Of a stretch of DNA of 64,000 bases, positions 9,001 to 62,296 are shown one piece after another (the first letter of the stretch is position 1; each line of letters opens with the position of its first letter). Under the pieces are notes generated by a model. The model was not told the DNA's origin. It searched no databases and was given only the letters and a program-made list of their open reading frames with translations. Source of the DNA: Macrostomum hystrix. Taxonomy: Eukaryota; Animalia; Platyhelminthes. The DNA lies in the NCBI GenBank assembly GCA_950097015.1, contig CATNEN010000038.1, positions 15,748,001 to 15,812,000 on the forward strand. Reading direction: 5' to 3'. Made by a program: the position numbers and the translations under genes.

Positions 9001-10724
9001 GCTTTACAGGCACTGATCTGAAACGGTTTTTTCCGAAATTCCCCCCATAGCAATACAAAAAACAACAGAAGAGACAAAAGCTTTAGAATCTTGCCTAATG
9101 TTTAGCCATGCCTAATTGTGAATATAGAAATTGTGCACAATTTACCAATTCTTAATTACTCAACACTTGAATTAGGTAATACCGGGACATGCCAAACGTT
9201 GCCAAAGACTGGCTCACAAACCTACGATTCACTGATGACGAAAGGGCGATTAGACCCAGCTGGTCAGGGCGTCACAACTGCTGGACAGTTCATTGTGAGT
9301 TGTGGGGTTTAGTAGGATCGTTTAGAGTACGTTTGTGTAGCTATTTGCCTCTCGCACCAAGGTCCCTGAGCTCGATTCCGCGGCGAGGCCACATTCATTT
9401 GAGGCGCTGCCGCGGAGAGAAGGCTTGGGGGCTTGTCGTACAATTTACGCCCTTGAGGGCCAACCTTCAAGGCAACAGTGAGTGTACACTGCCTGACGAT
9501 GAGCAAGTCAGGGCTGATGTACACACCTGTGTGAGCGTGTACCTGCGTACGGTATCTGTGTGCGTGTGTGTTTAGGAATCAGCGAAATTGGCAGAATTGC
9601 CTCCTGGCTGGCTGCTGGTATAGTGTCACCAAATGATGTGCCATTGTCCGCAGCCCGTACTATTATAAAAATAATTATATGTGTTAGTATTTTGCCAGTA
9701 CGAGGTATCGTACGAGTCAGAACGAATCGATTTCTAATCTCTCCCTACAATTATTCAAAATAAATGTACTTGAGGCAGTGTTATAATTATCTATTTATAA
9801 AACTCCATACTTTTCAGCCTATGGCAGTGACGAAAAATCGACGACAAAAGACCATAGACATGTTTGAGTTGGATAGCGCCGAGGAAATGCTGCACGGAGA
9901 CGGCGAGTTTGGTAAATAATGGGATTTTATACAGGAATTATGTTTTTTGAAAAAGTACAAGAATTTAACTTTGTGAAAAGCGTTACTTTATAAAGTTACT
10001 TTTCTCAGTACACTGCTGCTTTTTCAAGCAAAAGCAGTTTTTAGAAAGATTTCAATTTATGAGTCTGTATTAACAGAAATCGAAATAAATTTTTGTTGAA
10101 CTTAATTCTTATTACATTGATAGATAACAATGATTAGGAACTAAAATATTTCCTACTGGTTAGAGCGTCTGACTCATGACTTCGGAGGTCGAAGGTCGGA
10201 GGTTCGATTCCCGACACCACTAGAAAACTTGCGTCCTTTAGCAAGACTTTTAACTCTGCATTGCTTCAGTTGACCCAGCTGTTAAATGGGTGCCAGCATT
10301 AGCTGGGATGTAATTGAAGGTGGGCGTGGCGTCTCCCCAGTCCATGGACTGAACAGCCGTACGCAGCCTTCCGATGCACCGCGCAATAGCTGCGGCTGTG
10401 CTGTCGGCTGCACATCTAGTGTTGATATTAGAAAAATAACGACAAAAAAGGTTTTAACGACTCGTTTCTTTTTAGTTACTTGCTTACCAGTAAACTTAAT
10501 TATACTTGACTTTCCAAGCTCGACCATCCGCCTGCCACTCGGAGTCTGACCTGGCGGGCGGAGCTGCGCTGGACAGCAAGTCGCGACATAACCGGCGTCG
10601 TTTTGAAGATGCCGACGATGCTGACGACGATAGTTACAGCGGTCCGGGAGAAATGCACCAGAAACGGCATCATTACACAGCTGGTCCACCGGTGTGCTAC
10701 ACGCCATTGTGCACTAACAGATCT

Positions 10725-30925: not shown

Positions 30926-32282
30926 TCAGCTGACTACATCCAACGGCCTGTGATAGAGGCTCACTCGTCTAGCTGTGTAAATTGAGAACAAATCAAAGCG
31001 ACGCATTTCAACAGATTCAAAGCCAATTTGAAGGCCCAACTTCACCAGAGGCAGAGCGGCTCGGAGCACTGGCGCCACTTCGGCCTGCGGCAGAGACTCG
31101 AGTTGCGACACAGACAGCCATTCGGCCTTAGAAATCTCGTCAGGACACGGCCTGACCAGCTGACTGTCCCGGCTGCCATTCGCCAAGCTGAGCCGGCAGA
31201 GGACGTAGAAATCTGACCGATTGAAAGCCATCGGATGCCGATGATGATGACGGAAGGCCAGCACGGATTCGAAACGCGATTGTAAACCGGTCTCTTCGGC
31301 TACTTCCCTAGTAGCGGCCTCGCCAATCTCTTCGCCTAGATCGGCAACGCCGCCTGGTAGTTTCCATGGCGACGGAGAAGAAGATTTGCCGCAATTAGTT
31401 GAAGAAGTAGAAGACGGACTGGGTCGATGCTCGCGGACGCACAGCAGAGAATCGTCGTCTATAAGGAGGCCGGCCACGCCGAGCTGGTGGGTGCCGAATC
31501 TAGGCACCTTACTGGGCCTATCCGGCCTCAGCCATTTCACCAGGCTGGCATAGTAGCCTTCGGCGTGGTGATAACGAAAGCCGTCAATTGCTAGGCTGGC
31601 GGCCAGACTGCTCAGATGCAGGGGAAGCCGCACCCAGGCGGCTGGCGCAGCCGCTGATTGTGTTGAGACGGCGTCTGAGACGATGGAGACAGAGAGGAGA
31701 TAAGCGGGCGGTTTCTAGGGCCTGTTTTTAGAGTCCAATAGGAACAGGACTGAAGGTATTATGAGGCTGCCTGAAGGAACAGGAATGAAGGTATTATGAG
31801 GCTGCCTGAAGGAACAGGAATGAAGGTATTATGAGGCTGCCTGAAGGAACAGGAATGAAGGTATTATGAGGCTGCCTGAAGGAATAGGAATGAAGGTATT
31901 ATGAGGCTGCCTGAAGGAATAGGAATGAAGGTATTATGAGGCTGCCTGAAGGAACAGGACTGAAGGTATTACGAGGCTGCCTGAAGGAATAAATGACGGA
32001 TTTAGTTTGTCAAACTAGTAGTGTCATATTTTACAACAGAATAATAAACCTCTCTGATATGCTCACAAACACACCTCTGATATGCTCAATCACCAGGTCG
32101 GGATCCGTGCCCTCATTCACAGCTGATAGGTCCAGCATCACTCCGCCGTAGCGATCTGTTGTCATAGTAACACCAGACGCGTAATTAATGAAGCGTTTCA
32201 TTTGGGCTGGCGCTGCCGTAAGCAGATGAAATTTTCCTAGAACAGCTGACGAAAATCCACAACACCGCATTAGACAGCGCAT
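30926..32282 (-). CDS. NUDT6: Nudix hydrolase 6-like, 2 exons
   Basis: Exons 32282-32075 and 31674-30926 (phase 1). Motifs DRYGGV, AAWVRLP, GFRYHHAE..LVKWL, VPRFGTHQLGVAG, Nudix box WKLPGGVADLGEEIGEAATREVAEETG, FRHHH..FNRSDFY. The start Met (MRCLMRCCGF) is inferred. Confidence 0.92.
31740..31990. repeat. 35-bp minisatellite in the NUDT6 intron
   Basis: (GGAACAGGAATGAAGGTATTATGAGGCTGCCTGAA)n, about 7 units. Confidence 0.95.
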
Positions 32283-32326
32283 TTTGGTGGGCCTGCAAAC
32301 ACACAAATCAACGAATGACATTGTTG

Positions 32327-36930: not shown

Positions 36931-37128
36931 ATCAGAACATTTTATTTAAAGCTATTTTCTTCAAGATTTTACCATAGACACTAAAATTATCATTTACTCT
37001 GTGGTTTAGTGAATCGACTTTAAAAGACGGAGGCATTTATTCGCTTTACAAAATAAAAAACCACTGTAAATTCATTTATTATTATTAACTCGACACTGAG
37101 CAGTTAGTAATTCAACTATTTATCCTAA

Positions 37129-37617
37129 TCATCGCCTGGACAGCCAGAGCCTAAATTGAGCAGCCAGGAGTCCCAGCAGAGCCCGATTCCACCGCCTCGT
37201 AAAATTCTGCTGGTCCGGTTTGGTCTGTTCAAGAAACCGGCGATAGAACTCAGCCATCTGGTCAGGCAACAGCTGCTCCTCGGGCGAGTAGGCCAGTTCT
37301 GTGCGTTTTATCATTGAAAATCTGTCTTTAGCCAGTTTGAATGCCCGATTATGCTCGGCCCAGTGCTGGTGGCACAGCTGCCAAGCTGCCAAGCGTCTGT
37401 CCCTGTACTCCGACGCCGTTTTATCCCCGTCGGCGTCGGCAAGCTCGATCTGCACCGGTCGAATGGACGACCGAGGATCCGATGGTCCCAGGCTTTCGTG
37501 AATGCGCTGATGCAACTCACGACATTGCAGGCAAAGACGATGATGAAACAAACGGTTTGCTATGCTGGCCGGGTTTAGTAGGGCCTGATGACAGGCTTTG
37601 AATAACTGCTGGTTAGC
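37129..37617 (-). CDS. COA8: Cytochrome c oxidase assembly factor 8 (APOPT1)-like; coding exon lacks an ATG
   Basis: LGPSDPRSSIRPV, CHQHWAEHNRAFKLAKDRF and QMAEFYRRFL..FTRRW match COA8 conserved blocks. The frame is open back to the acceptor TCCCCTTACTGCAG|GCT at 37617. Confidence 0.88.
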   Translation of the reverse strand, partial: ANQQLFKACHQALLNPASIANRLFHHRLCLQCRELHQRIHESLGPSDPRSSIRPVQIELADADGDKTASEYRDRRLAAWQLCHQHWAEHNRAFKLAKDRFSMIKRTELAYSPEEQLLPDQMAEFYRRFLEQTKPDQQNFTRRWNRALLGLLAAQFRLWLSRR

Positions 37618-37699
37618 CTGCAGTAAGGGAAGTTTGTACGTTTAACTGACACATAGCGACAACGAAACTAAAATTGTTACTCACAGGTCGTAGTGCGTG

Positions 37700-38225
37700 T
37701 CTAATGAGACATTGTGGTTGGGGTAGTGGCTGTCCAATCAGACATTGTGGTTGGGGTACTGGCTGTCCAATGAGACATTGCGGTTGTGTAGTGGCTGTCC
37801 AATCAGATATTGTGGTTGAGGTAAGTGGCTGTCCAATCAGACATTGTGGTGGAGGTAGTGGCTGTCCAATCAGACATTGTGGTTGGGGTACTGGCTGTCC
37901 AATGAGACATTGCGGTTGTGTAGTGGCTGTCCAATCAGATATTGTGGTTGAGGTAGTGGCTGTCCAACCAGACATTGTGGTTGAGGTAGGGGCTGTCCAA
38001 TCAGATATTGTGGTTGAGGTAGTGGCTGTCCAATCAGACATTGTGGTTGAGGTAGTGGCTGTCCAATCAGATTTTGTGGTTGAGGTAGTGGCTGTCCAAT
38101 CAGACATTGTGGTTGGGGTAGTGGCTGTCCAATCAGACATTGTGGTTGGGGTAGTGGCTGTCCAATCAGACATTGTGGCTGGGGTAGTGGCTGTCTAATC
38201 AGACATTGTGGTTGGGGTAGACATT
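37700..38225. repeat. 33-bp minisatellite containing CCAATCAG
   Basis: (GTGGCTGTCCAATCAGACATTGTGGTTG[A/G]GGTA)n. Confidence 0.95.
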
Positions 38226-38789
38226 CTTGGTAGGAAAAGTCATTAATAGGCTGGCTTAATTAATCATTGCGACCAGAAACAAAAACTGTACTAGTGCTAA
38301 TGAAATATCTGACTGGTAAAATTTGCATTTAAATTGAATAGAAAATTAGGTTCCTTTTCAAAATTATTTATTATACGAGCTAGATTCGTTTTACGCAAAT
38401 ACAAGCAGGCTTTTTGGCACTTGTAAAACTGTTTAAGCACACAATAATGGTTGTTAGAAAGGCTAAAATATAAAATATACAAAAGCTTTAAAAGGTCTGA
38501 AAAATATTTCACAGAGAGTTTACGTTAAAAATAATATTGTAGCAAATAACTTGCGACATATTAATTGTCAACATATAATGAACAGCCTATGGGTAAAAAG
38601 AACAATAAATACGAGTTTTGTACTTTTTGCTTTTACCGGTGTACAAAAGATATTTATAGCTTGAATTCAAAATTAAAATATTGTTTTATCTGCAAATTTT
38701 ATTTGTTAAATTTACGTCAAACGGCTACCATTATTAAAAAAATAGGAAAATTTATTGATTAACATTTAATTATTAACAGTTTATTGAAC

Positions 38790-39437
38790 TTTAAAACTCT
38801 GACGTGGCGCATCTGAACGCTGCGTACAGCTGTTCAGTCCATGGACTGGGTGGACGCCAAACCCAGCCTGAATTACCCCGGGTGATGCTGGTACCCATTT
38901 AACTGCTGAGTGAACTGAGTTAGGGTCTAAATAAAGGACATAATGGGAGTCGCCCATCGCGCCATCTGGACCCCTGGACACGGGCACCTCACACACAGCA
39001 GCAAGCCAAGAGGGGAAGGGGCGGCAGGTGGAGTGCCTCTCACCCCAGGCCCGCACACGCACAAAGCTGACCAAACCAGGGGAGGACTTAGATGCCTGAA
39101 GGGTAGGGACGAGAGGACCAAGCCACGCGCGCGGACGGCTGGTGAAACCTCGCCGCTCAGAGCACGCATGGCTGGTGCACACCCGCCCCACCCCCATACA
39201 ACGCCTCACACCCGGCCCAATGCACAAACACAAACACAAACAAGCAGGCATGCAGAAGGCAGGGGTTAAGCTATTTTAAATTTGCTTTGGTTGCACAGAA
39301 TAAGGCGCATCTCCGCAAGTCACTAGTTCGCAAACCTCCAACTAAGCCCCGAGATAATCGTGACTTGGAGGGAGGAACGAACCAGCGACCATTGGAAAGT
39401 GAGACAGCGCCACTAGCCGCTGACCCACTCACCCCCT
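38790..39437 (-). mobile_element. Long composite SINE: tRNA-like head, unrelated GC-rich middle, family B 3' part
   Basis: Reverse complement begins GGGGTGAGTGGGTCAGCGGCTAGTGGCG...GGTTCGTTCC. Its 3' end (CTCAGTTCACTCAGCAGTTAAATGGGTACC...CCAGTCCATGGACTGAACAGC..CAGATGCGCC) matches SINE B. Confidence 0.7.
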
Positions 39438-39578: not shown

Positions 39579-41387
39579 TTATTTCCGAATGTGTGACCGC
39601 AGCAGCAGCAGCAGCACAGCGGTGGCTCCGAAGCCGACGCCGACGCCCAAGCCTAAGCCGGCGAAGAAGATGACAACGTGCGACTGGTGCTTAAGCTCAC
39701 GCAGCAGGCGAGCAGTAAATCTGAGAATGTGTGCTCTAGCCAGGTATACTAAGAAGTACTTGGCCAGAAGAAAGCATTGACGCTCAGGATTGGACAGGCC
39801 CTGTCTGATAATTTCGCGCATTAGACAGATGACAAAGTACTGCACTCGAACAAAGCCGTTTAGATCGTAGGTCTCGTGAAAAACCTTCTCTAGTTCGTCC
39901 TCTAGCTGATCGTAACTATAGAAGGAAATGCGAAATAAACATTTTTATTGAGAATTTATGTTTCATCCTGCATTTAGGTGAGTTCAGGTAATTTAGATGA
40001 GCTCAGGTAATCTAGGGTAGAATAGCTAATCTATTGATAAGCACAGGTAGTCTAGGTGAGCACAGGTAATCTAGGTGAGCACAGGTAATCTATAGATAAG
40101 TACAGGTAATCTAGGTGAGCACAGTTAATCTAGGTAAGCAAAGGTAATCTAGGTGAGCACAGGTAATCTATAGATAAGCACAGGTAATCTAGGTGAGCAA
40201 AGGTAATCTAGTTGAGCACAGGTAATCTAGGTGAGCAAAGGTAATCTAGTTGAGCACAGGTAATCTAGGTGAGAATAGCTAATCTATTGATAAGCACAGG
40301 TAATCTAGGTGAGCAAAGGTAATATAGTTAAGCACAGGTAATCTAGGTGAGCAAAGGTAATCTAGTTGAGCACAGGTAATCTAGGTGAGCACAGGTAATC
40401 TATAGATAAGCACAGGTAATCTAGGTGAGCACAGGTAATCTATAGATAAGCACAGGTAATCTAGGTGAGCACAGGTAATCTATAGATAAGCACAGGTAAT
40501 CTAGGTGAGCACAGGTAATCTATAGATAAGCACAGGTAATCTAGGTGAGCGCAGGTAATCTATAGATAAGCACAGGTAATCTAGGTGAGCACAGGTAATC
40601 TATAGATAAGCACAGGTAATCTAGGTGAGCACAGGTAATCTATAGATAAGCACAGGTAATCTAGGTGAGCGCAGGTAATCTATAGATAAGCACAGGTAAT
40701 CTAGGTGAGCGCAGGTAATCTATAGATAAGCACAGGTAATCTAGGTGAGCGCAGGTAATCTATAGATAAGCACAGGTAATCTAGGTGAGCGCAGGTAATC
40801 TATAGATAAGCACAGGTAATCTAGGTGAGCAAAGGTAATCTAGGTGAGCAAAGGTAATCTAGGTGAGCGCAGGTAATCTATAGATAAGCACAGGTAATCT
40901 AGGTGAGCAAAGGTAATCTAGGTGAGCACAGGAAGTCAAGGTAAGCACAAGTACTTAAAAAATAAATATTCATTACTAACTACTGATAAATTACTACTGA
41001 CTTGTTAATGCGGCCACGCCGGACGAAGTCGTCAGCAAAATTGCGCAGCGTAACAGCATTCTGCGAGGTGGCAAAACTGTTTGCAAGGTTTCTCAATGTA
41101 TTGCCAACGTCGCTACCGGTCAAGGTCTGTTGGGCTCGCTGGTCGAAATCCTGAGGCGCGTTAACCACCTGTCTAGCCGCTTCGGTGGTGATTCTGTCTC
41201 CGTTGGGCACCTCGGAGAAGGTCGCTAGAATGCCAGCAGATGCTTCAAGAACTACTCGCTCATCTGGACTGAGTTGCTCATAATCGAAACTTGGCACAGT
41301 CGGTATGTTCTCATTGTTCTGATCGGCTTCCTGTTCGCCGCGTTCGGTAAACTGCTGCTTGTCATCAGCTGCCGACTCCTCAGCCAT
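39579..41387 (-). CDS. Divergent Bcl-2-family protein 1 (BH3-like and BH1-like segments, C-terminal TM), 2 exons
   Basis: Exons 41387-41002 and 39915-39579 (phase 2). LRNLANSF / LRNFADDF (BH3-like); ELEKVFHETYDLNGFVRVQYF (BH1 position); TM tail VVIFFAGLGLGVGVGFGATAVLLLLL-RSHIRK. Paralog of the gene at 42924. Confidence 0.7.
39975..40945. repeat. 19/23-bp minisatellite (GAGCACAGGTAATCTAGGT) with a 42-bp higher-order dimer, in the Bcl-2-like 1 intron
   Basis: Directly visible. Confidence 0.95.
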
Positions 41388-41504
41388 TGTCTCATTGACT
41401 GCTGAAATGATGACGGTTCGATTCGTTTGTTAAATTGGACGAGCTGGGATGGAGCCAGACCACAATCTGGGTTTTACTCGTAGATCCCAACGCGGTGATC
41501 CCAA

Positions 41505-41650
41505 CGTGTGAGTGTGTGCCTGCGTACAGTATCTGTGTGCGTGTGTGCTCGGGAGTCAGCGAAATGGGCAGAATTGCCTCCTCGCTGGCTGCGGGTCTAG
41601 TGTCACGAAGTGAATTGCCATTGCCCGCAGCCCTACTGAAATTATATATT
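41505..41650 (+). mobile_element. SINE family A, 3' fragment
   Basis: Matches the tail of the copy at 42510. Confidence 0.82.
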
Positions 41651-42509
41651 TATTTTTTTCCAAGGATTTAACTAATCTGAAAGCATTTAGATCCCAATTA
41701 AGAGATCTATATCATAGTTGATCCTAATCTACAGATATTGACGGATGCAAATTCTGATTTTGGTAACCCTTAGAGGGACTAAATCTAAATCTGAGGATCT
41801 TGCGAAAACTCTGAAAAACCTTAATATACTAAGGTTCACGCAAACAAGAAAAAAATATTCGTATAATGCTGACTTACCAGCAAAGCAGAAAATGTACTCG
41901 CAAACGAGGCACTGATATGTCATTTTTATTTGAAAATCTCAAAAGCAGTTAAAAACAGGAGTAAGCAAAACTCGTCTTTTGTAAACAATGAGAAAAAATA
42001 ATGATCAAGCAAATCAACACTTGAATAAGCGGTATTTAGCAAAATTATGAAAAGCCTTCATTGCACAAATTTATGTCTAACAATAAAGCAGAAATACAAT
42101 GTATTTTAAATCATAAAAACTTTGAAAAAATTGGCATAACTTAAACTTAAACATTGAGCTTAAGCCCATTAGAAAAATGGAGAAATTAAGACGCCAATTT
42201 AGCCGCAATATATAAGCTCTTTGTCACATACATGACGAACCTTGAATATACGAGTAGTGTTGGCTATTAGTTAAATAAGAAAGTGTGCTTCGTAAACAAG
42301 CACTATAAGCGTTCCATTTAACAGTTCGATCTGTAAGCAGAGTTTCTTATATAATTTGACACTTACGAAATATTACTCATAGTTACGAATTAGAGTGCAC
42401 AAACAATATTTATTTAATTCGTCATACAATTTCTGCGAATCACTAGTTACTAGTCACTAACTAATCGTTAGTTACCCGCTAGTTACTATCACTAACTAGT
42501 TACTCACGT

Positions 42510-42866
42510 GGTCGGTGGCAGAGCGGTCTAACGTGTTTGCCTTTCGCACCAAGGTCCCTGAGCTCGATTCCGCGGCGGAGCCACATTCATTTGTGGCGCA
42601 GCCGCGAAGAGAAGGCTTGGGGGCCTGTCGTGCAATTTACGCCTTTGAGTGCCAACCTCCAAGGCACAGTGAGAGTGTACACTGCCTGACGATGAGAAAG
42701 TCAGGGCAGATGTACACGGCGTGTACAAGCGTGTGCCTGCGTACAGTATCTGTGTGCGTGTGTGCTCAGGAGTCAGCGAAATGGGCAGAATTGCCTCCTC
42801 GCTGGATGCGGGTCTAGTGCCACTAAGTGAATTGCCATTGCCCGCAGTGCAATTATTATTATTATT
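42510..42866 (+). mobile_element. SINE family A, full-length copy
   Basis: GGTCGGTGGCAGAGCGG (A box), GAGCTCGATTCC (B-box-like), hairpin-rich body, (ATT)n tail. Confidence 0.88.
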
Positions 42867-42923
42867 AACTAATCCCTAGTTACCCTGCTAGTTACTCGCC
42901 CAACAGACAGGGCAGCAGGCCAA

Positions 42924-44203
42924 TCACTTCCTGGACCGGAGAACAAAGAATCCCACAACGGCGCAGGCAGCGGAAGCCACAGCCAAGCCAGTCAGGAAGC
43001 TCAGAACGGCCACCCGGCGCTTCTGATCCAGGGTGCGAAACAAATTAGCCACGAACTTGATAACATTGACCAGCAGGTAAGCCAAGAAGGCGTACACCAG
43101 CTGCTTGCAGAGCTCCTTGAAGCCGGACTCACCCTGCTCACTGTAAGCTCTCTGTAGCAGCCTGGCAACAAAGTGGAACAGGGCCACAAACGATTCGATA
43201 TTGTAGCCGCTGTGGAACAGGCTCTCCAGGATGGCGGTGAAGCCGGCAGGATTAGCGGCCAGGGTCTGCAAATCGGCCTCGGCGGCCAACCGGTTGGCCT
43301 GCGTGCCCTGGCGCGAGACGCGGAATTCGTCGGCCAGCTGAAGCATGGCCTGGCCTAGGCTGCTGTTGCTCAGCTGGGACCCAGGAGTCGATCGGAGAAG
43401 CCTGTTCACCTGAGAGAGACACTTGCCCATTTACCATCTAGCATTAAACTGGTGTACATCAACCGACTGTCTTCTATCTAGCCTTCAATGCACGCATTAA
43501 TTCTCAGTATGCAATGTAAATTTCCTTACAACCGTCACTATTCAATGTGCATATGCCCTACAACCTCACTCCTCAATGTACACATGCCTACAACCCCACT
43601 CCTTAATGTACATATGCCTACAACCCCACTCCTTAATGTACATATGCCTAAAACCCCATTCCAAAATGTACATATGCCCTACAACCTCACTCCTTAATGT
43701 AGATATGCCTACAACCCCACTCCTTAATGTACATATGCCCTACAACCTCACTCCTTAATGTAAATATGCCTACAACCCCACTCCTTAATGTACATATGCC
43801 CTACAACCCCACTCCTTAATGTACATATGCCCTACAACCCCACTCCTTAATGTACACAAGGCCTAAATCCCACTCGTCAATGTACATATGGTTGATAGTC
43901 TGAATTCCAAAAGCAAAAACAACCTGGAACACGCAATCCTCTCTCTTAGTCAAGCAAACTTACTTCATTAGAATCTCCTAGAAGTTCCCTACTAGCAGTC
44001 TCGGCCTCGGCTTCCGCTTCATCATTAACACTGGGCGGCAGGGACATGCGCTCGAGATTGTAGCGCAGCAGGTCGTAGCTCAAGCCGAAGGCGGCCCTTT
44101 CCTCGGTCTGCAAGCTTTCAAAGCTGGGCACACGCGGAATGGAAGTTTCTAGAAGGGTGGCGTCACCATCGGACGAGGCCGCTGGTTTAGAGTCTTTCAC
44201 CAT
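42924..44203 (-). CDS. Divergent Bcl-2-family protein 2 (Bak/Bax-like layout), 2 exons
   Basis: Exons 44203-43964 and 43409-42924 (phase 0). LGQAMLQLADEF (BH3-like); FTAILESLFHSGYNIESFVALFHF (BH1-like); TM tail VAVLSFLTGLAVASAACAVVGFFVL-RSRK. Confidence 0.78.
43545..43890. repeat. 33/34-bp minisatellite in the Bcl-2-like 2 intron
   Basis: (AATGTACATATGCCCTACAACCCCACTCCTT)n variants. Confidence 0.92.
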
Positions 44204-44252
44204 GACTTGCCGCGGAAACTGACGCTGAAAAGAGTTTTGAATTTGCTTTTGA

Positions 44253-44306
44253 GCTGGGATTCGAACTCCGGACCTCTCGGTTAGGTGTCCGAAGCTTTAA
44301 CCACTG
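44253..44306 (-). mobile_element. Short tRNA-like SINE head fragment
   Basis: Reverse complement CAGTGGTTAAAGCTTCGGAC...GAGGTCCGGAGTTCGAATCCCAG. Similar fragments at 60211-60255 and ~58407. Confidence 0.5.
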
Positions 44307-45716: not shown

Positions 45717-48462
45717 TCAAACGTAGCTTCCAGGCGACCAGGCACCGATCCGCGCATCGCAGGCCAGCTTAGGCGAGAACGAATGCGGCAAATCCCTGAG
45801 CTGCGGATGCAGGCGGACTCCGGACAGCACCTCGTTGAACAGCAGGTGAGAAGGCACAAAAGCGCTGATGTACAGTCGATGGCGCTGCGGGTCGCTCAGT
45901 CGCAGATGCTGCACGGCAGCTCGGAGCTGACCGGCGAGGTGTCCGACAGCGTCAGCCTCTGTCCGACAGTAGATATTCAGCACCAGGTGAAGGCCGCCCA
46001 CTGGGACTGAGGTCCAGTTGGCGATGCTCACGCCGGTCACCTCGCCAGCGGGCACTGGGCCCGGCTCCGAGAAACTGGCCATCACCTTGGAGATATTTTA
46101 TGTTTTAGTGTACCTTGTCAACTGGTTAGTTGGTTTCTGAACCCAGATAATTGTTAAGTTTGAAGATATCAAATAATTGGGTGGGGTTCAAGAGGCCAGA
46201 TAATTGGGTGGGGTTAGACAGCCTGGATAATTGGGTGGAGTTAGACAGGCAGGATAATTGGGTGGAGTTAGACAGGCAGGATAATTGGGTGGAGTTAGAC
46301 AGGCAGGATAATTGGGTGGGGTTAGAGAGGCCAAACAATAGGGTGGAGTTTAAGAGGCCAGATAATTGAGGGGGGTTTAAGAGGCCAGAAAATTGAGTGG
46401 GGTTTAAGAGGCCAGATAATTGGGTGCGGTTTAAGAAGCTAGATAATTTGGTGGGGTTTAAAAGGCCAAACAATAGGGTGGAGTTTAAGAGGCCAGATAA
46501 TTGAGTGGGGTTTAAGAGGCCAGATAATTGGGTGCGGTTTAAGAAGCTAGATAATTTGGTGGGGTTTAAAAGGCCAAACAATAGGGTGGAGTTTAAGAGG
46601 CCAGATAATTGAGTGGGGTTTAAGAGGCTGGATAATTGGGTCGGGTTCAAGAGGCCAGATAATTGGGGGGGTTTGAAAGGCCGGATAATTGGATGGGGTT
46701 TAAGAGGACAGATAATTGGGTGAATGGAGTTTGATAGGCCAGATAATTGAGTGGGGTTTAAGAGGCCAGATGGGTTAGAGAGGTGAGGTTAGAATGGGTG
46801 GTGGTTTTAAAGAGGCCAGACAACTGAGAGCAAATCAAGAGTTATCTGGCCTTTAGTGAATATTTATAACACGAGTAAATACAGACTTACCTGTTGCAAA
46901 AATCTATTCCATATTTGCAAGTTTCCCTTAGAAAATATTAGGGATTCCTTGGCTATGAGCAAGTGCTGTTCAGGTTTAAAAAGCCGATTTTCTGTGCCAC
47001 TGCAGACAGCCTCGGAGCTCAGAAAATCTACCGCGTTAGGCACTAGCTTGGGTTCATTGAGACTAGGCTTATTGTCTTCGAATTTCCTAGCCAAAGCGGC
47101 TAGATTATCCGCTGTACACTCAAATCCTAATTGTTGATTGTGTAGTACTACTTTTAGTATGCTCTGACGATTTTCAAAGAAGCGCCGAGTGTAAACTGGC
47201 AGATTGTACACGCCGCTACAGCCCGCCAAGCTGTGCAGCCTTGGCTGGAGGTGCTCAAACAGTGTTTGGGTTGCCAGGGACATTAGGCCGCAGTCGCGCA
47301 GACCGGCTATGGTGCGACCTCCGCCGAATGACAAATTTCGCCCGGCTTCATTGACGATGGCGTAGACGAAAGTCAACTGGGGTGTGTGTTTTTTAAATGG
47401 ATATTTACTTTTGTCTAGCCGTAAAATACAAAATTATTTACAAAATAAAGATGACCTATTTCTTTGCTAAAATACTAAATCTAAGTTGGGCCAAGAGGTT
47501 TCTGAATTCGGCACCATTAACACTCACAACATCTTTCGCCTGTCTAAACTCTCACCTGTCTGAACTCTCACCTGTCTGAACTCTCACCTGTCTGAACTCT
47601 CACCTGTCTGAACTCTCACCTGTCTGAACTCTCACCTGCCTGAACTCTCACCTGCCTGAACTATCACCTGTCTGAACTCTCACTTGTCTCAACTCTCACC
47701 TGTCTGAACTCTCACTTGTCTCAACTCTCACCTGTCTGAACTCTCACCTGCCTGAACTCTCACCTGCCTGAACTCTCACCTGCCTGAACTCTCACCTGTC
47801 TGAACTCTCACCTGTCTGAAATCTCACCTGTCTGAAATCTCACCTATCTCATCTCTCCCAAGTCTCGTATCCCCCCTGCCCCATATCACCCCAGTCTAAT
47901 CTCTCCCTAGTTTCATTTCTCCCTAGTCTCAACTCTCCCCCTGTCTCATCTCCTCCTAGTCTCACCTCTCTCTAGGCTCATATCTCTCTTAAGTCTGATC
48001 TCTCCTGTCTGACTCCCAATATCGTATATCTTATTTGTCTCCAATCAATGCGGCCTGTTGTCGTATCTAGACTATCTTGTTTGTTTATTTTTCTAATCCT
48101 GCCGACCACTGTATTACAGAAGTAAGACGTACCAAATAAGTCAAAGGGCTCCACTAAACCAGACTCACAATCTTATTGTTAGCTGAGTCCAAAGCTACCA
48201 GGCCGCAGCGACTATCGTGACGAACAATATCATCGTAATAGTCCTGCATATAGTCCAATCCGTAGTGAACATCCGGCTCAATTTTGAGCACCTCCGCTTT
48301 GTCTGCTAGCGTAGCCAAACGGAATTGCACATTCTCACTGGGAATAGGAAGCTTTTTTAATTTCTTTTCAGCATTGGCGTGCAAGTTAATCTGGATCACA
48401 GGTGCGCTGCGATTACCTGTGGACAAAAACCGGCGAGCGAAAACTGCCGCTAGCGATGACAT
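45717..48462 (-). CDS. NAT16: NAT16 / histidine N-acetyltransferase-like GNAT, paralog A, 3 exons
   Basis: Exons 48462-48169, 47376-46891, 46085-45717 (all phase 0). FRLATLAD..VHYGLDYMQDYY..GLVAL..KI resembles the NAT16 N-terminus (YGGLDYL); GNAT motif A GGRTIAGLRDCGL. Confidence 0.8.
46170..46830. repeat. 27-bp minisatellite (GATAATTGGGTGGGGTTTAAGAGGCCA)n
   Basis: Directly visible, intronic. Confidence 0.92.
47538..47850. repeat. 16-bp minisatellite (CTGAACTCTCACCTGT)n
   Basis: Directly visible, intronic. Confidence 0.93.
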
Positions 48463-48579
48463 ACCGATGCCTTTGCTAAATGCTGCAACTGTTTATACGG
48501 AAATAAACTACATCTAGTGGGCTGTCTGTAAGATAATTATTCATTTCATGACCTCTTTCATTTCCATTCACTCTACTGA

Positions 48580-50410: not shown

Positions 50411-52570
50411 TCAAACATAAGTACCCGGCGACCAGGCCAGGATTCGAGCATCGCAAGACAATTTTGGCGACACCGATTGCGGCAAATCCCTGAGCTGCGG
50501 ATGCAGGCGGACTCCGGAGAGCACCTCGTTGAACAGCAGGTGAGAAGGCACAAAAGCGCTGATGTACAGTCGATGGCGCTGCGGGTCGCTCAGTCGCAGA
50601 CGCTGCACGGCAGCTCGGAGCTGACCGGCGAGGTGTCCGACAGCGTCAGCCTCTGTCCGACAGTAGATATTCAGCACCAGGTGAAGGCCGCCCACTGGGA
50701 CTGAGGTCCAGTTGGCGATGCTCACGCCGGTCACCTCGCCAGCGGGCACTCGGCCCGGCTCCGAGAAACTGGCCATCACCTGGAAGATTCGCACCGAGTT
50801 GTGTGAGTCTTTTTATTTGCCTTAACTGTCCAATGACAGATTCTAAACCTGTCTAATGACCGATTTTAAACCTGTCTAATGACCGATTCTATAGCTCTCT
50901 AATGACCGATTCTATAGCTGTCTAATGACCGATTCTATAGCTGTCTAATGACCGATTCTACAGCTGTCTAATGACAAATTCTACACCTGTCTAATGACCG
51001 ATTCTATAGCTGTCTAATGACCGATTCTATAACTGTCTAATGACCGATTCTAAACCTGTCTAATGACCGATTCTATAGCTGTCTAATGACCGATTCTATA
51101 ACTGTCTAATGACCGATTCTAAACCTGTCTAATGACCGATTTTAAACCTCGCTGTCTAGGAATGTCAGCTAATGACCAATTATTTGTTTCTAATTAGGGA
51201 CTTAAAAAAGCATTTAATACATTCAAATATATTAATGTATTACTATATGATCCGATTGCCACTACTAACACTGTGTCTTGCGCAATCCTAATTTACCTGA
51301 TGCAGGTAACCACTCCAAATGAGCAGATTTCCTTTAGAAAATGTTAGCGCCTCCTTGGCAATGAGCAGGTGCTGGTCCGGCTTAAATATTCGATTCTCTG
51401 TGCTACTGCAGACGGCCTCAGAGCTGAGAAAGTCTACAGGATTAGTAACTAGATCAGGCTCGTGCAGTCTGGGAGAATCGGCTGAGAATCTGTCACCAAG
51501 GTCAGCCAGATAATCAGCCGTGCACTCGAATCCCAACTGCTGATTATGCAGTACAACTTTAGTTAATCCGCTCTGCTTTTCAAAATAGGCCCTAGTGTAA
51601 TTGGGCAGATTGTACACGCCGCAGCAGACCACGGCGGGGTGCAGGCGCGGCTTCAGCAGTTCGAATAGGGCGCGAGAGGTGCGCGCCGAGAGGCCGCGCG
51701 ACCGCATCTCCAGGCGAGTTCGACCGCCGGCGTAGGACAAGTTGCGGCCCCCCTCGTTTATGACCGCGTAGCCGAATGCCAACTGCCAGGTGGGAAATAA
51801 TGTAGCTGTTTATGAACAAAGCTTTAAGTATATTCTATGACCTAAATTTATAAGTACATTCTATGACCTAAATTTTAAAGTACATTCTGTGACCTAAATT
51901 GTTAAGTACATTCTATGACCTAATTTTTTAAAGTACATTCTATGACATTCGTTTTTAAAGTACATTCTATGGCCTCAATTTTAAAGCATATTTTATGACC
52001 TAAATTTTTTAATTACATTATTTGTGCTACATTTGCATTCTATTTCAAAATAAGAATTTTTAAAGTGCATTTCAAGTACACACTATAGCCGAAATTATAA
52101 TGATAATGAATGACTCAAACTAATCAATGCGCTGTGGAAAAAAATTTGGGGAGCAAAATGAAGACTGACAAAGTATCTATTTAGACCAAGAAAAAGTGCA
52201 AAATCCATGTGTTTTAAATACTCACAATTGTCTTGCTGACTTTATCCAGAGCAACAATACCGCACCTATGCTCACTGTTGACTATTTCTTCATAGTAGTC
52301 CTGCAGATAGTCCAAGCCATAATGAATGTTCGGCTCTATGCTGAGCACCTGCTCTTTATCAGCCAGTGCAGCGGCGCGAATCTCCAAGTTATCCTTTGGC
52401 ATCGGAAGTTGAGACCAGCGATCGTTAAGCGCATTGCGTCTTCTATTGGCCTCGATGTCAATCTGAGACTGGCCAAATGAAGCCTCGTTGGCCGCGATGC
52501 AGTACCAGTGCTGCTGACACTGGAGCAGAGAACGCAGAATCCTGCGAGACCAAAGGCTTGTGGCCGCCAT
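50411..52570 (-). CDS. NAT16: NAT16 / histidine N-acetyltransferase-like GNAT, paralog B, 3 exons
   Basis: Exons 52570-52226, 51782-51297, 50779-50411; same intron positions as paralog A. IHYGLDYLQDYY; motif A GGRTRLEMRSRGL. Confidence 0.8.
50826..51150. repeat. 23-bp minisatellite (CTGTCTAATGACCGATTCTATAG)n
   Basis: Directly visible, intronic. Confidence 0.93.
51822..52010. repeat. ~27-bp AT-rich minisatellite (AAGTACATTCTATGACCTAAATTT..)n
   Basis: Directly visible. Confidence 0.85.
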
Positions 52571-52699
52571 CTGCTTTGCACAGAAATTATTCTGAAATAA
52601 AGATTCAGCTGTTGTAATCTTTTTTGCACAATTTCCGATTCGAGATGTGAGAATGTTTTTTGCTCATTTTGCTTATGTGTGGAAGAAATTTAAGAAATA

Positions 52700-61969: not shown

Positions 61970-62296
61970 GAAGAGGTTGTAGCCTAGTAAGAGGTTGTAG
62001 CCTAGTGGTTAGGGCGTCGGACTCACGACTTGAAGGTCGGGGGTTCGATTCCCGACTCCACTGGAACAATTTGCGTCCTTTAGCAAGACACTTAACTCTG
62101 CATTGCTTCAGTTCACCCAGCTGTTAAATGGGTACCTGCATCAGCTGGGATAATTGAAGGTGGGTGTGGCGTCCCCCCAGTCCGTGGACTTAACAGCCTT
62201 ACGCAGCCTTCAGATGCGCCGCGCAATAGCTGCGGCTGTGCTGTCAGCTGCACATCTGACCCCATTGGGGCAGGTGTAATCAATTATTAATTTCAA
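61970..62296 (+). mobile_element. CORE-type SINE (family B), full length, with an 11-bp TSD
   Basis: A box TAGCCTAGTGG, B box GGTTCGATTCCC, CORE-like central domain. Direct repeat TTAGGGGATTA at 61959-61969 and 62297-62307. Confidence 0.88.

What the first reader, a model, noticed from the sequence alone, without database searches (positions are those of the whole stretch)
37129..37660. COA8 has no start codon of its own: candidate for an initiator AUG supplied by the spliced leader
Seen in sequence: the COA8 frame is open from 37641 to the stop at 37129. Its first in-frame ATG lies after the conserved GPxD/WxxxN blocks. A clean acceptor (TCCCCTTACTGCAG|) at 37617 opens in phase 0 onto ANQQLFKACHQALLNPASIANRLFHHRL, an acid-free segment resembling a mitochondrial presequence. 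The nearest upstream ATG (37654) is out of frame and would need an implausible 22-nt intron. Established knowledge: flatworm spliced leaders end in AUG, which can act as the initiator Met. Inference: trans-splicing completes this ORF as M-ANQQ.
Basis: partly seen in the sequence, partly recalled or inferred. Interest (0 to 1): 0.8.

Follow-up and report, generated by a model that had tools for sequence, protein, structure and literature searches.

The report
Mitochondrial gene borrows its start codon
In a Macrostomum-type flatworm, the gene for the respiratory-chain assembly factor COA8 has no usable start codon of its own, and its transcripts carry a short leader RNA spliced on in frame whose final AUG likely starts the protein, a trick known from parasitic flatworms and seen here in a free-living one.

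Summary
Confirmed at the RNA level. The single-exon COA8 frame (37617-37129, minus strand; Pfam PF10231) has its first in-frame ATG at codon 102, behind 10 of 15 conserved columns. In 4 of 4 public runs laid (2 studies), the one contig on the gene leaves the genome at the predicted acceptor (CAG ending at 37618) and continues with 13-23 nt that match the 3' end of the published Macrostomum lignano spliced leader. These letters are absent from the window. The leader's terminal AUG lands in frame and gives 44 residues before the conserved Gly (homolog median 48). Translation from that AUG and mitochondrial import are inferred, not shown. An in-frame landing alone is a one-in-three chance. No contig shows it. 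Two M. lignano copies are annotated 5'-partial at the matching place; one has its own Met. The mechanism is known from Schistosoma and Echinococcus, and this scan has raised it before on other genomes. Verdict: a well-supported new instance of a known mechanism.

The parts
37129..37617 (-). COA8 coding exon, 162 codons plus stop, without an initiator codon
   Evidence: Pfam PF10231 E 9.3e-19, 68.1 bits against cut-off 27; 59-60% identity to three M. lignano proteins
37618..37631 (-). trans-splice acceptor: pyrimidine tract and CAG; fits the [T/C]TNCAG motif of M. lignano trans-acceptors
   Evidence: contigs of 4 of 4 runs leave the genome here; motif from PMC8629364
37519..37617 (-). acid-free N-terminal 33 codons, presequence-like (predicted only)
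   Evidence: first D/E at residue 34; net charge +2 in the first 24 residues against homolog median +3 in 25; best hydrophobic moment 0.50 against median 0.54
37147..37497 (-). COA8 domain match, residues 41-157
37312..37314 (-). first in-frame ATG (codon 102), too late to give an intact COA8
   Evidence: 10 of 15 columns conserved in at least 80% of 76 homologs lie upstream of it
37036..37128 (-). 3' UTR with AATAAA at 37080 and 37041
   Evidence: contigs of X2-X4 reach 37047, 37040 and 37036; hexamers
37632..37689 (-). unique part of the presumed outron or intercistronic spacer; holds the out-of-frame ATG (37654) and the rival cis donor (37684)
   Evidence: the four COA8 contigs carry the leader in its place
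37690..38220 (.). 33-bp minisatellite, 16 copies; holds an open frame (163 codons from ATG 38173 to 37685) that is in phase with COA8 through the 37684 donor

Best explanation
The COA8 transcript is trans-spliced at 37618/37617 to the Macrostomum spliced leader, and the leader's terminal AUG, which falls in frame, likely serves as the only start codon for a full-length protein of 163 residues. Shown: the junction, the frame, and the lack of any in-frame AUG before codon 102. Inferred: scanning ribosomes initiate at the leader AUG (context G at +4, pyrimidine at -3); the product Met-ANQQ... has an acid-free N-terminus that likely acts as a mitochondrial presequence, as in human COA8; and the protein likely assists complex IV assembly. 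Also inferred: the gene may sit inside an operon (Bcl-2-like gene, COA8, Nudix gene). There trans-splicing would be obligatory, so the gene's own ATG became redundant and could be lost.
For:: one contig per run, 4 of 4 runs, 2 studies, no mismatch or gap over 171-583 aligned bases, each with the same loose end at 37618 (13 nt in X1, 23 nt in X2-X4); no joints listed; with the shared G, the 23-nt loose end equals the last 24 nt of the published 35-nt leader, which holds only that one ATG; 0 matches in the window at up to 3 mismatches; start at the leader gives 44 residues before the conserved Gly; 63 Met-starting homologs give a median of 48 (range 7-137). M. lignano P0075 and P0001 are annotated 'partial', share the C-terminus of the complete P0074, and begin at the first and second residue behind its Met. 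That annotation cut transcripts at trans-splice sites after trimming the leader (PMC5730564 passages). Precedent: more than 40 S. mansoni cDNAs need the leader AUG (Cheng 2006 as cited in PMC9851317); E. granulosus cases in PMC3510090.
Against: No ribosome or peptide data were available. In-frame landing is no more than chance by itself: 28% of S. mansoni trans-spliced transcripts are in frame (as cited). The -3 base is a pyrimidine, so some leaky scanning is possible, and in-frame near-cognate codons lie at codons 19, 23 and 30. One M. lignano record (P0074) has its own Met, so dependence on the leader is not uniform across copies, and its N-terminus is about 10 residues shorter (34 before the Gly). 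All runs are assembled contigs, which drop rare variants, and only 13-23 nt of the leader are seen. The presequence is modest in charge (+2) and was judged by simple composition measures only.
Confidence: 0.88

Rival explanations
1. The mRNA is trans-spliced as seen, but translation starts mainly at an in-frame near-cognate codon (ATA 19, TTG 23, CTG 30) after leaky scanning past the leader AUG, giving a shorter N-terminus.
For: These codons exist in frame. The leader AUG has a pyrimidine at -3. M. lignano N-termini are about 10 residues shorter, and some homologs have only 12-21 residues before the Gly.
Against: A true AUG with G at +4 lies upstream of them on a leader of 35 nt. An out-of-frame AUG follows at 37525. 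These starts would drop 18 to 29 of the 33 acid-free residues.
Confidence: 0.06
2. The start codon comes in cis: a 67-nt intron from the GTGAG donor at 37684 joins an ATG-bearing minisatellite frame in phase 0, or a 22-nt intron joins ATG 37654.
For: The 37684 donor matches the consensus GT[G/A]AG, is in phase, and the upstream frame is open for 163 codons. Flatworm acceptors are often shared between cis- and trans-splicing (PMC12582326 passage). The minisatellite itself was not covered by a read test.
Against: All 4 contigs cross the acceptor into the leader with no other 5' end. None of the 24 loose ends listed (of 98) for 38225-39974 matches the COA8 start. The 67-nt form would put a long Ser/Thr/Asp-rich repeat in front of the presequence. 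M. lignano proteins show no such extension.
Confidence: 0.04
3. The gene is transcribed and trans-spliced, but gives only the internal Met102 fragment or no useful protein, and the in-frame leader AUG is a coincidence.
For: In-frame landing has a prior of 1 in 3; no protein evidence was seen.
Against: The frame is intact and keeps all 12 columns invariant in a 16-sequence alignment, 9 of them upstream of Met102. Identity to M. lignano is 59-60%. No second copy lies in the window.
Confidence: 0.02

Closest known systems
[quoted passage not shown] 2006, PMID 16230357, seen only as cited; Echinococcus granulosus, PMC3510090; 'slORFs', PMC9851317)
   Same: A leader ending in AUG is joined directly in frame to an ORF that has no other usable AUG, and the resulting N-terminus fits that of orthologs.
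   Different: Here the host is a free-living Macrostomum-type flatworm outside the Neodermata and the target is COA8. In vivo initiation was reported for Schistosoma and is not tested here.
Macrostomum SL trans-splicing and operons (PMC8629364; PMC10468722; PMC5730564)
   Same: Same leader sequence over the 24 nt seen, same acceptor motif, and short repeat-adjusted spacers between same-strand genes.
   Different: PMC8629364 (3 of 4 parts read) does not analyse the leader AUG as a start codon. PMC10468722 calls it a translation start codon in a figure legend, without naming dependent genes in the passages read.
COA8/APOPT1 family (Pfam PF10231; human COA8, PMC6328941)
   Same: Domain match above the curated cut-off; an acid-poor N-terminal extension of similar length. 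Human COA8 has a cleaved 26-residue targeting sequence.
   Different: 63 of 69 aligned homologs begin with their own annotated Met; this gene encodes none.

Membership tests
Flatworm SL-AUG-initiated ORF | Known spliced leader joined at an AG acceptor on the mature RNA | tested here: met
   4 of 4 runs, junction at 37618/37617; match to published leader
Flatworm SL-AUG-initiated ORF | Leader not encoded upstream in cis | tested here: met
   0 matches in 64 kb at up to 3 mismatches; the rest of the genome is not held, so the SL RNA gene was not located
Flatworm SL-AUG-initiated ORF | Leader's terminal AUG in frame with the main ORF | tested here: met
   exon opens in phase 0 at 37617
Flatworm SL-AUG-initiated ORF | No alternative in-frame AUG that keeps the conserved protein | tested here: met
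   first in-frame ATG at codon 102; 10 of 15 conserved columns upstream
Flatworm SL-AUG-initiated ORF | Initiation at the leader AUG shown in vivo | not testable with these tools
   needs ribosome profiling, proteomics or a reporter
COA8/APOPT1 (PF10231) | Domain score above gathering cut-off | tested here: met
   68.1 bits against 27
COA8/APOPT1 (PF10231) | Cleavable N-terminal mitochondrial targeting sequence | tested here: inconclusive
   length, lack of acids and amphipathicity lie within the homolog range; no dedicated predictor or import test was run
COA8/APOPT1 (PF10231) | Role in cytochrome c oxidase assembly | not testable with these tools
   inferred from human and fly studies (PMC6328941 passages; PMC6742693 listing only)
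Macrostomum operon (definition of PMC8629364) | Repeat-adjusted spacer under 1 kb to an adjacent same-strand gene | tested here: met
   164 bp to the Nudix gene's putative first exon; upstream, 1430 bp from the stop codon but 174 bp from the nearest exact contig cover
Macrostomum operon (definition of PMC8629364) | Downstream neighbour is itself trans-spliced | not tested
   the acceptor at 32293 fits the motif, but no runs were laid there

The most novel reading that the evidence does not exclude
Start-codon loss at COA8 is shared across Macrostomum species and marks a large hidden class: conserved, operon-internal genes whose first codon, and so their mitochondrial targeting, exists only after trans-splicing. 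Many 5'-partial M. lignano proteins would then be complete genes. The leader's AUG would be held by selection from free-living to parasitic flatworms, and the M. lignano copies with and without their own Met would be a snapshot of the hand-over.
Probability: 0.4. Interest if true: 0.55.

Novelty: new member of a known kind. Interest (0 to 1): 0.4.

Why it matters
It is a clean, transcript-supported case of a gene whose start codon is supplied by a separate RNA, in a free-living flatworm genus that has transgenesis (M. lignano), so the leader-AUG mechanism can be tested by reporter. It extends the mechanism beyond the parasitic flatworms where it was studied. It also has a practical side: genome annotation that trims the leader will call such genes partial or start them at an internal Met, here losing 101 residues including the targeting region. 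The mechanism itself is not new.

Tried and rejected
No whole genome is held, so neither the SL RNA locus nor other COA8 copies could be sought. The run search listed no holder on record as RNA. That X2, X4 and X5 are RNA is inferred from the leader and from contigs that stop at the upstream gene's exon edge 39915 and run on. No contig lay on 37619-37689; lack of cover proves nothing. The word-index protein search gave 0 hits of 58 candidates with the window protein, and only the two M. lignano clusters among 7995 candidates with the alignment, so no further flatworm ortholog was identified. The metagenome scan gave 1 locus of 461 pattern matches; L001 looks like a bacterial transposase by eye (judged from recall) and was rejected as spurious. 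Upstream, 38803-39436 is covered by many contigs with differences, and 38803-38918 recurs twice in the window, so cover there says nothing on this locus. Cheng 2006 is not held. Supplements of PMC10468722 and PMC12582326 could not be read and may list COA8 among trans-spliced genes. The supplements of PMC5832876 had 0 hits for COA8, apoptogenic or PF10231; of 83 'apopt' hits only 2 were viewed, both the word apoptosis. No earlier scan note lies near this place. One protein of 1245 residues among the 73 hits was left out of the alignment. No structure was predicted, as it would not bear on the start codon.

Full report
Observation. On the minus strand a frame is open from 37641 to the stop at 37129. 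From the acceptor (AG ending at 37618) it holds 162 codons that match Pfam COA8 over residues 41-157 (E 9.3e-19, 68.1 bits, cut-off 27). The first in-frame ATG is codon 102 at 37314, the first acidic residue is number 34, and ATG 37654 is out of frame. The host is a Macrostomum-type flatworm: the closest proteins are M. lignano records at 59-60% identity, so it is probably not M. lignano itself.

Direct test. Five public runs hold the stretch, none on record as RNA. Four of the five were laid on 36960-37689. Each gave one contig with no mismatch or gap, aligned up to 37618 and then continuing with the same non-genomic letters: 13 nt in X1 (depth 2.5) and 23 nt in X2-X4 (depth 66-92), from two studies. 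Read on the minus strand and with the shared G at 37618, the 23-nt end equals the last 24 nt of the 35-nt M. lignano spliced leader printed in PMC8629364. These letters do not occur in the window at up to 3 mismatches. The leader's final ATG stands directly before the first exon codon, in frame. The contigs of X2-X4 end at 37047-37036, near AATAAA signals at 37080 and 37041. The acceptor fits the [T/C]TNCAG motif reported for M. lignano trans-acceptors. Limits: these are assembled contigs, which drop rare variants and give no strand, and only part of the leader is seen.

Is the leader AUG needed? In-frame landing alone is a one-in-three event; 28% was reported for S. mansoni (as cited). A run of 101 codons without Met has a chance of about 0.18 at the homologs' internal Met frequency of 1.66%. 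The case rests on need. In an alignment with 76 homologs, 10 of 15 columns conserved in at least 80% lie upstream of Met102. A start at the leader gives 44 residues before the conserved Gly, against a median of 48 (range 7-137) in the 63 of 69 aligned homologs that begin with Met. The first acid would be at 35 (median 23), net charge +2 (median +3), best hydrophobic moment 0.50 (median 0.54). This fits a presequence but does not prove one. Human COA8 has a cleaved 26-residue targeting sequence (PMC6328941).

Relatives. Four M. lignano records were found. P0074 is complete and begins Met-Ser-Val. P0075 and P0001 are annotated partial, end like P0074, and begin at the first and second residue behind its Met. 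P0002 begins further in and differs at the C-terminus. The M. lignano annotation trimmed the leader and cut transcripts at trans-splice sites before calling ORFs (PMC5730564), which would make leader-dependent genes appear 5'-partial. This suggests the dependence is shared, but their DNA could not be read here, and P0074 shows that one copy has a Met of its own. No other flatworm ortholog was identified.

Rivals. It would give a 67-nt phase-0 intron joining a frame in the 33-bp minisatellite that is open for 163 codons from ATG 38173. No contig shows this form, and none of the 24 loose ends listed, of 98, on 38225-39974 matches the COA8 start. The minisatellite was not covered by a read test, so a minor cis form stays possible. 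In-frame near-cognate codons at 19, 23 and 30 could serve after leaky scanning, since the leader AUG has a pyrimidine at -3, though it has G at +4. A dead gene is unlikely given the intact, conserved frame.

Context. Downstream on the same strand lies a Nudix gene (PF00293 and PF18290). Its putative first exon starts at 32292 behind a motif-fitting acceptor and has its own ATG at 32282. The spacer is 4743 bp, of which all but 164 bp is one 49-bp minisatellite, within the published operon criterion of 1 kb after repeat removal. Upstream, a two-exon gene ends at 39579 beside a Bcl-2-like gene (PF00452, E 4.4e-06, below cut-off). Exact, low-depth contigs cover 38323-38848 in pieces, and one stops at 38349, just behind an AATAAA at 38372. 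That is a weak hint of a long 3' UTR or polycistronic precursor ending about 200 repeat-adjusted bases before the COA8 acceptor. If COA8 is operon-internal, trans-splicing is obligatory, which would explain how its own ATG could be lost. This step is inference.

What is known. The leader AUG as initiator was described for S. mansoni by Cheng et al. 2006, which is not held and was seen only as cited in PMC9851317 (passages), PMC3510090 (passages), PMC5832876 (passages) and PMC12582326 (passages). PMC3510090 reports that 10 of 15 E. granulosus orthologs found in leader libraries would also use it. PMC6530080 marks the role with a question mark in a legend (passages). For Macrostomum, PMC10468722 notes in a legend that the leader likely contains the final ATG, called a translation start codon (passages). 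PMC8629364 (parts 1-3 of 4 read) does not analyse it. In one search, none of the 8 papers listed held both a trans-splicing term and COA8 or APOPT1; searches listed no title on Macrostomum genes that depend on the leader AUG. Two unread supplements may bear on this. The scan has raised leader-donated AUGs before on other genomes; those notes were not checked and are not counted as support.

Verdict. Real, and confirmed at the RNA junction. Most likely the spliced leader supplies the initiator codon of COA8 (0.88). It is a new member of a known kind, with interest 0.4.

Noticed in passing
window 32282-32293 and 30926-31714, minus strand: Nudix gene downstream of COA8. Its putative trans-acceptor lies 10 nt before its own ATG, so a leader AUG there would be out of frame: a contrast to COA8 next door. 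The spacer to COA8 is 164 bp once a 4.6-kb minisatellite is removed.
   Followed up: partly
window 39579-44296, minus strand: Two neighbouring genes with similar first exons (43946-44296 and 40980-41429) and last exons ending in a hydrophobic tail (42924-43430, weak Bcl-2 match E 4.4e-06; 39579-39915, no family above cut-off). They look like a diverged tandem pair of Bcl-2-like genes; the pairing is judged by eye.
   Followed up: partly
window 38323-38848: Low-depth contigs with no differences (X2, X4, X5) cover this AT-rich stretch in pieces; one ends just behind AATAAA 38372. Possible long 3' UTR, polycistronic precursor or COA8 outron; strand unknown.
   Followed up: partly
window 38803-38918 (also 10266-10383 and 62108-62223): Short dispersed repeat, 82-85% alike within the window and hit by very many transcript contigs in the runs; probably a mobile element or its remnant.
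   Followed up: no
P0074 against P0075 and P0001 (M. lignano records): One M. lignano COA8 copy is annotated with its own Met while two near-identical copies are 5'-partial at the same place: possible gain or loss of the start codon between recent duplicates.
   Followed up: partly
window 37585-37609, minus strand: Three further phase-0 CAG codons (AG ending at 37609, 37606, 37585) could act as alternative acceptors and would also put the leader AUG in frame, giving shorter presequences. None is seen in the contigs.
   Followed up: partly
window 45717-48492 and 50411-52689, minus strand: Tandem duplicate of a multi-exon gene with closely similar exons; not identified.
   Followed up: no
whole window: Many spacers between coding stretches are filled with long minisatellites (76 Tandem Repeats Finder rows, arrays up to 4.6 kb).
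   Followed up: no
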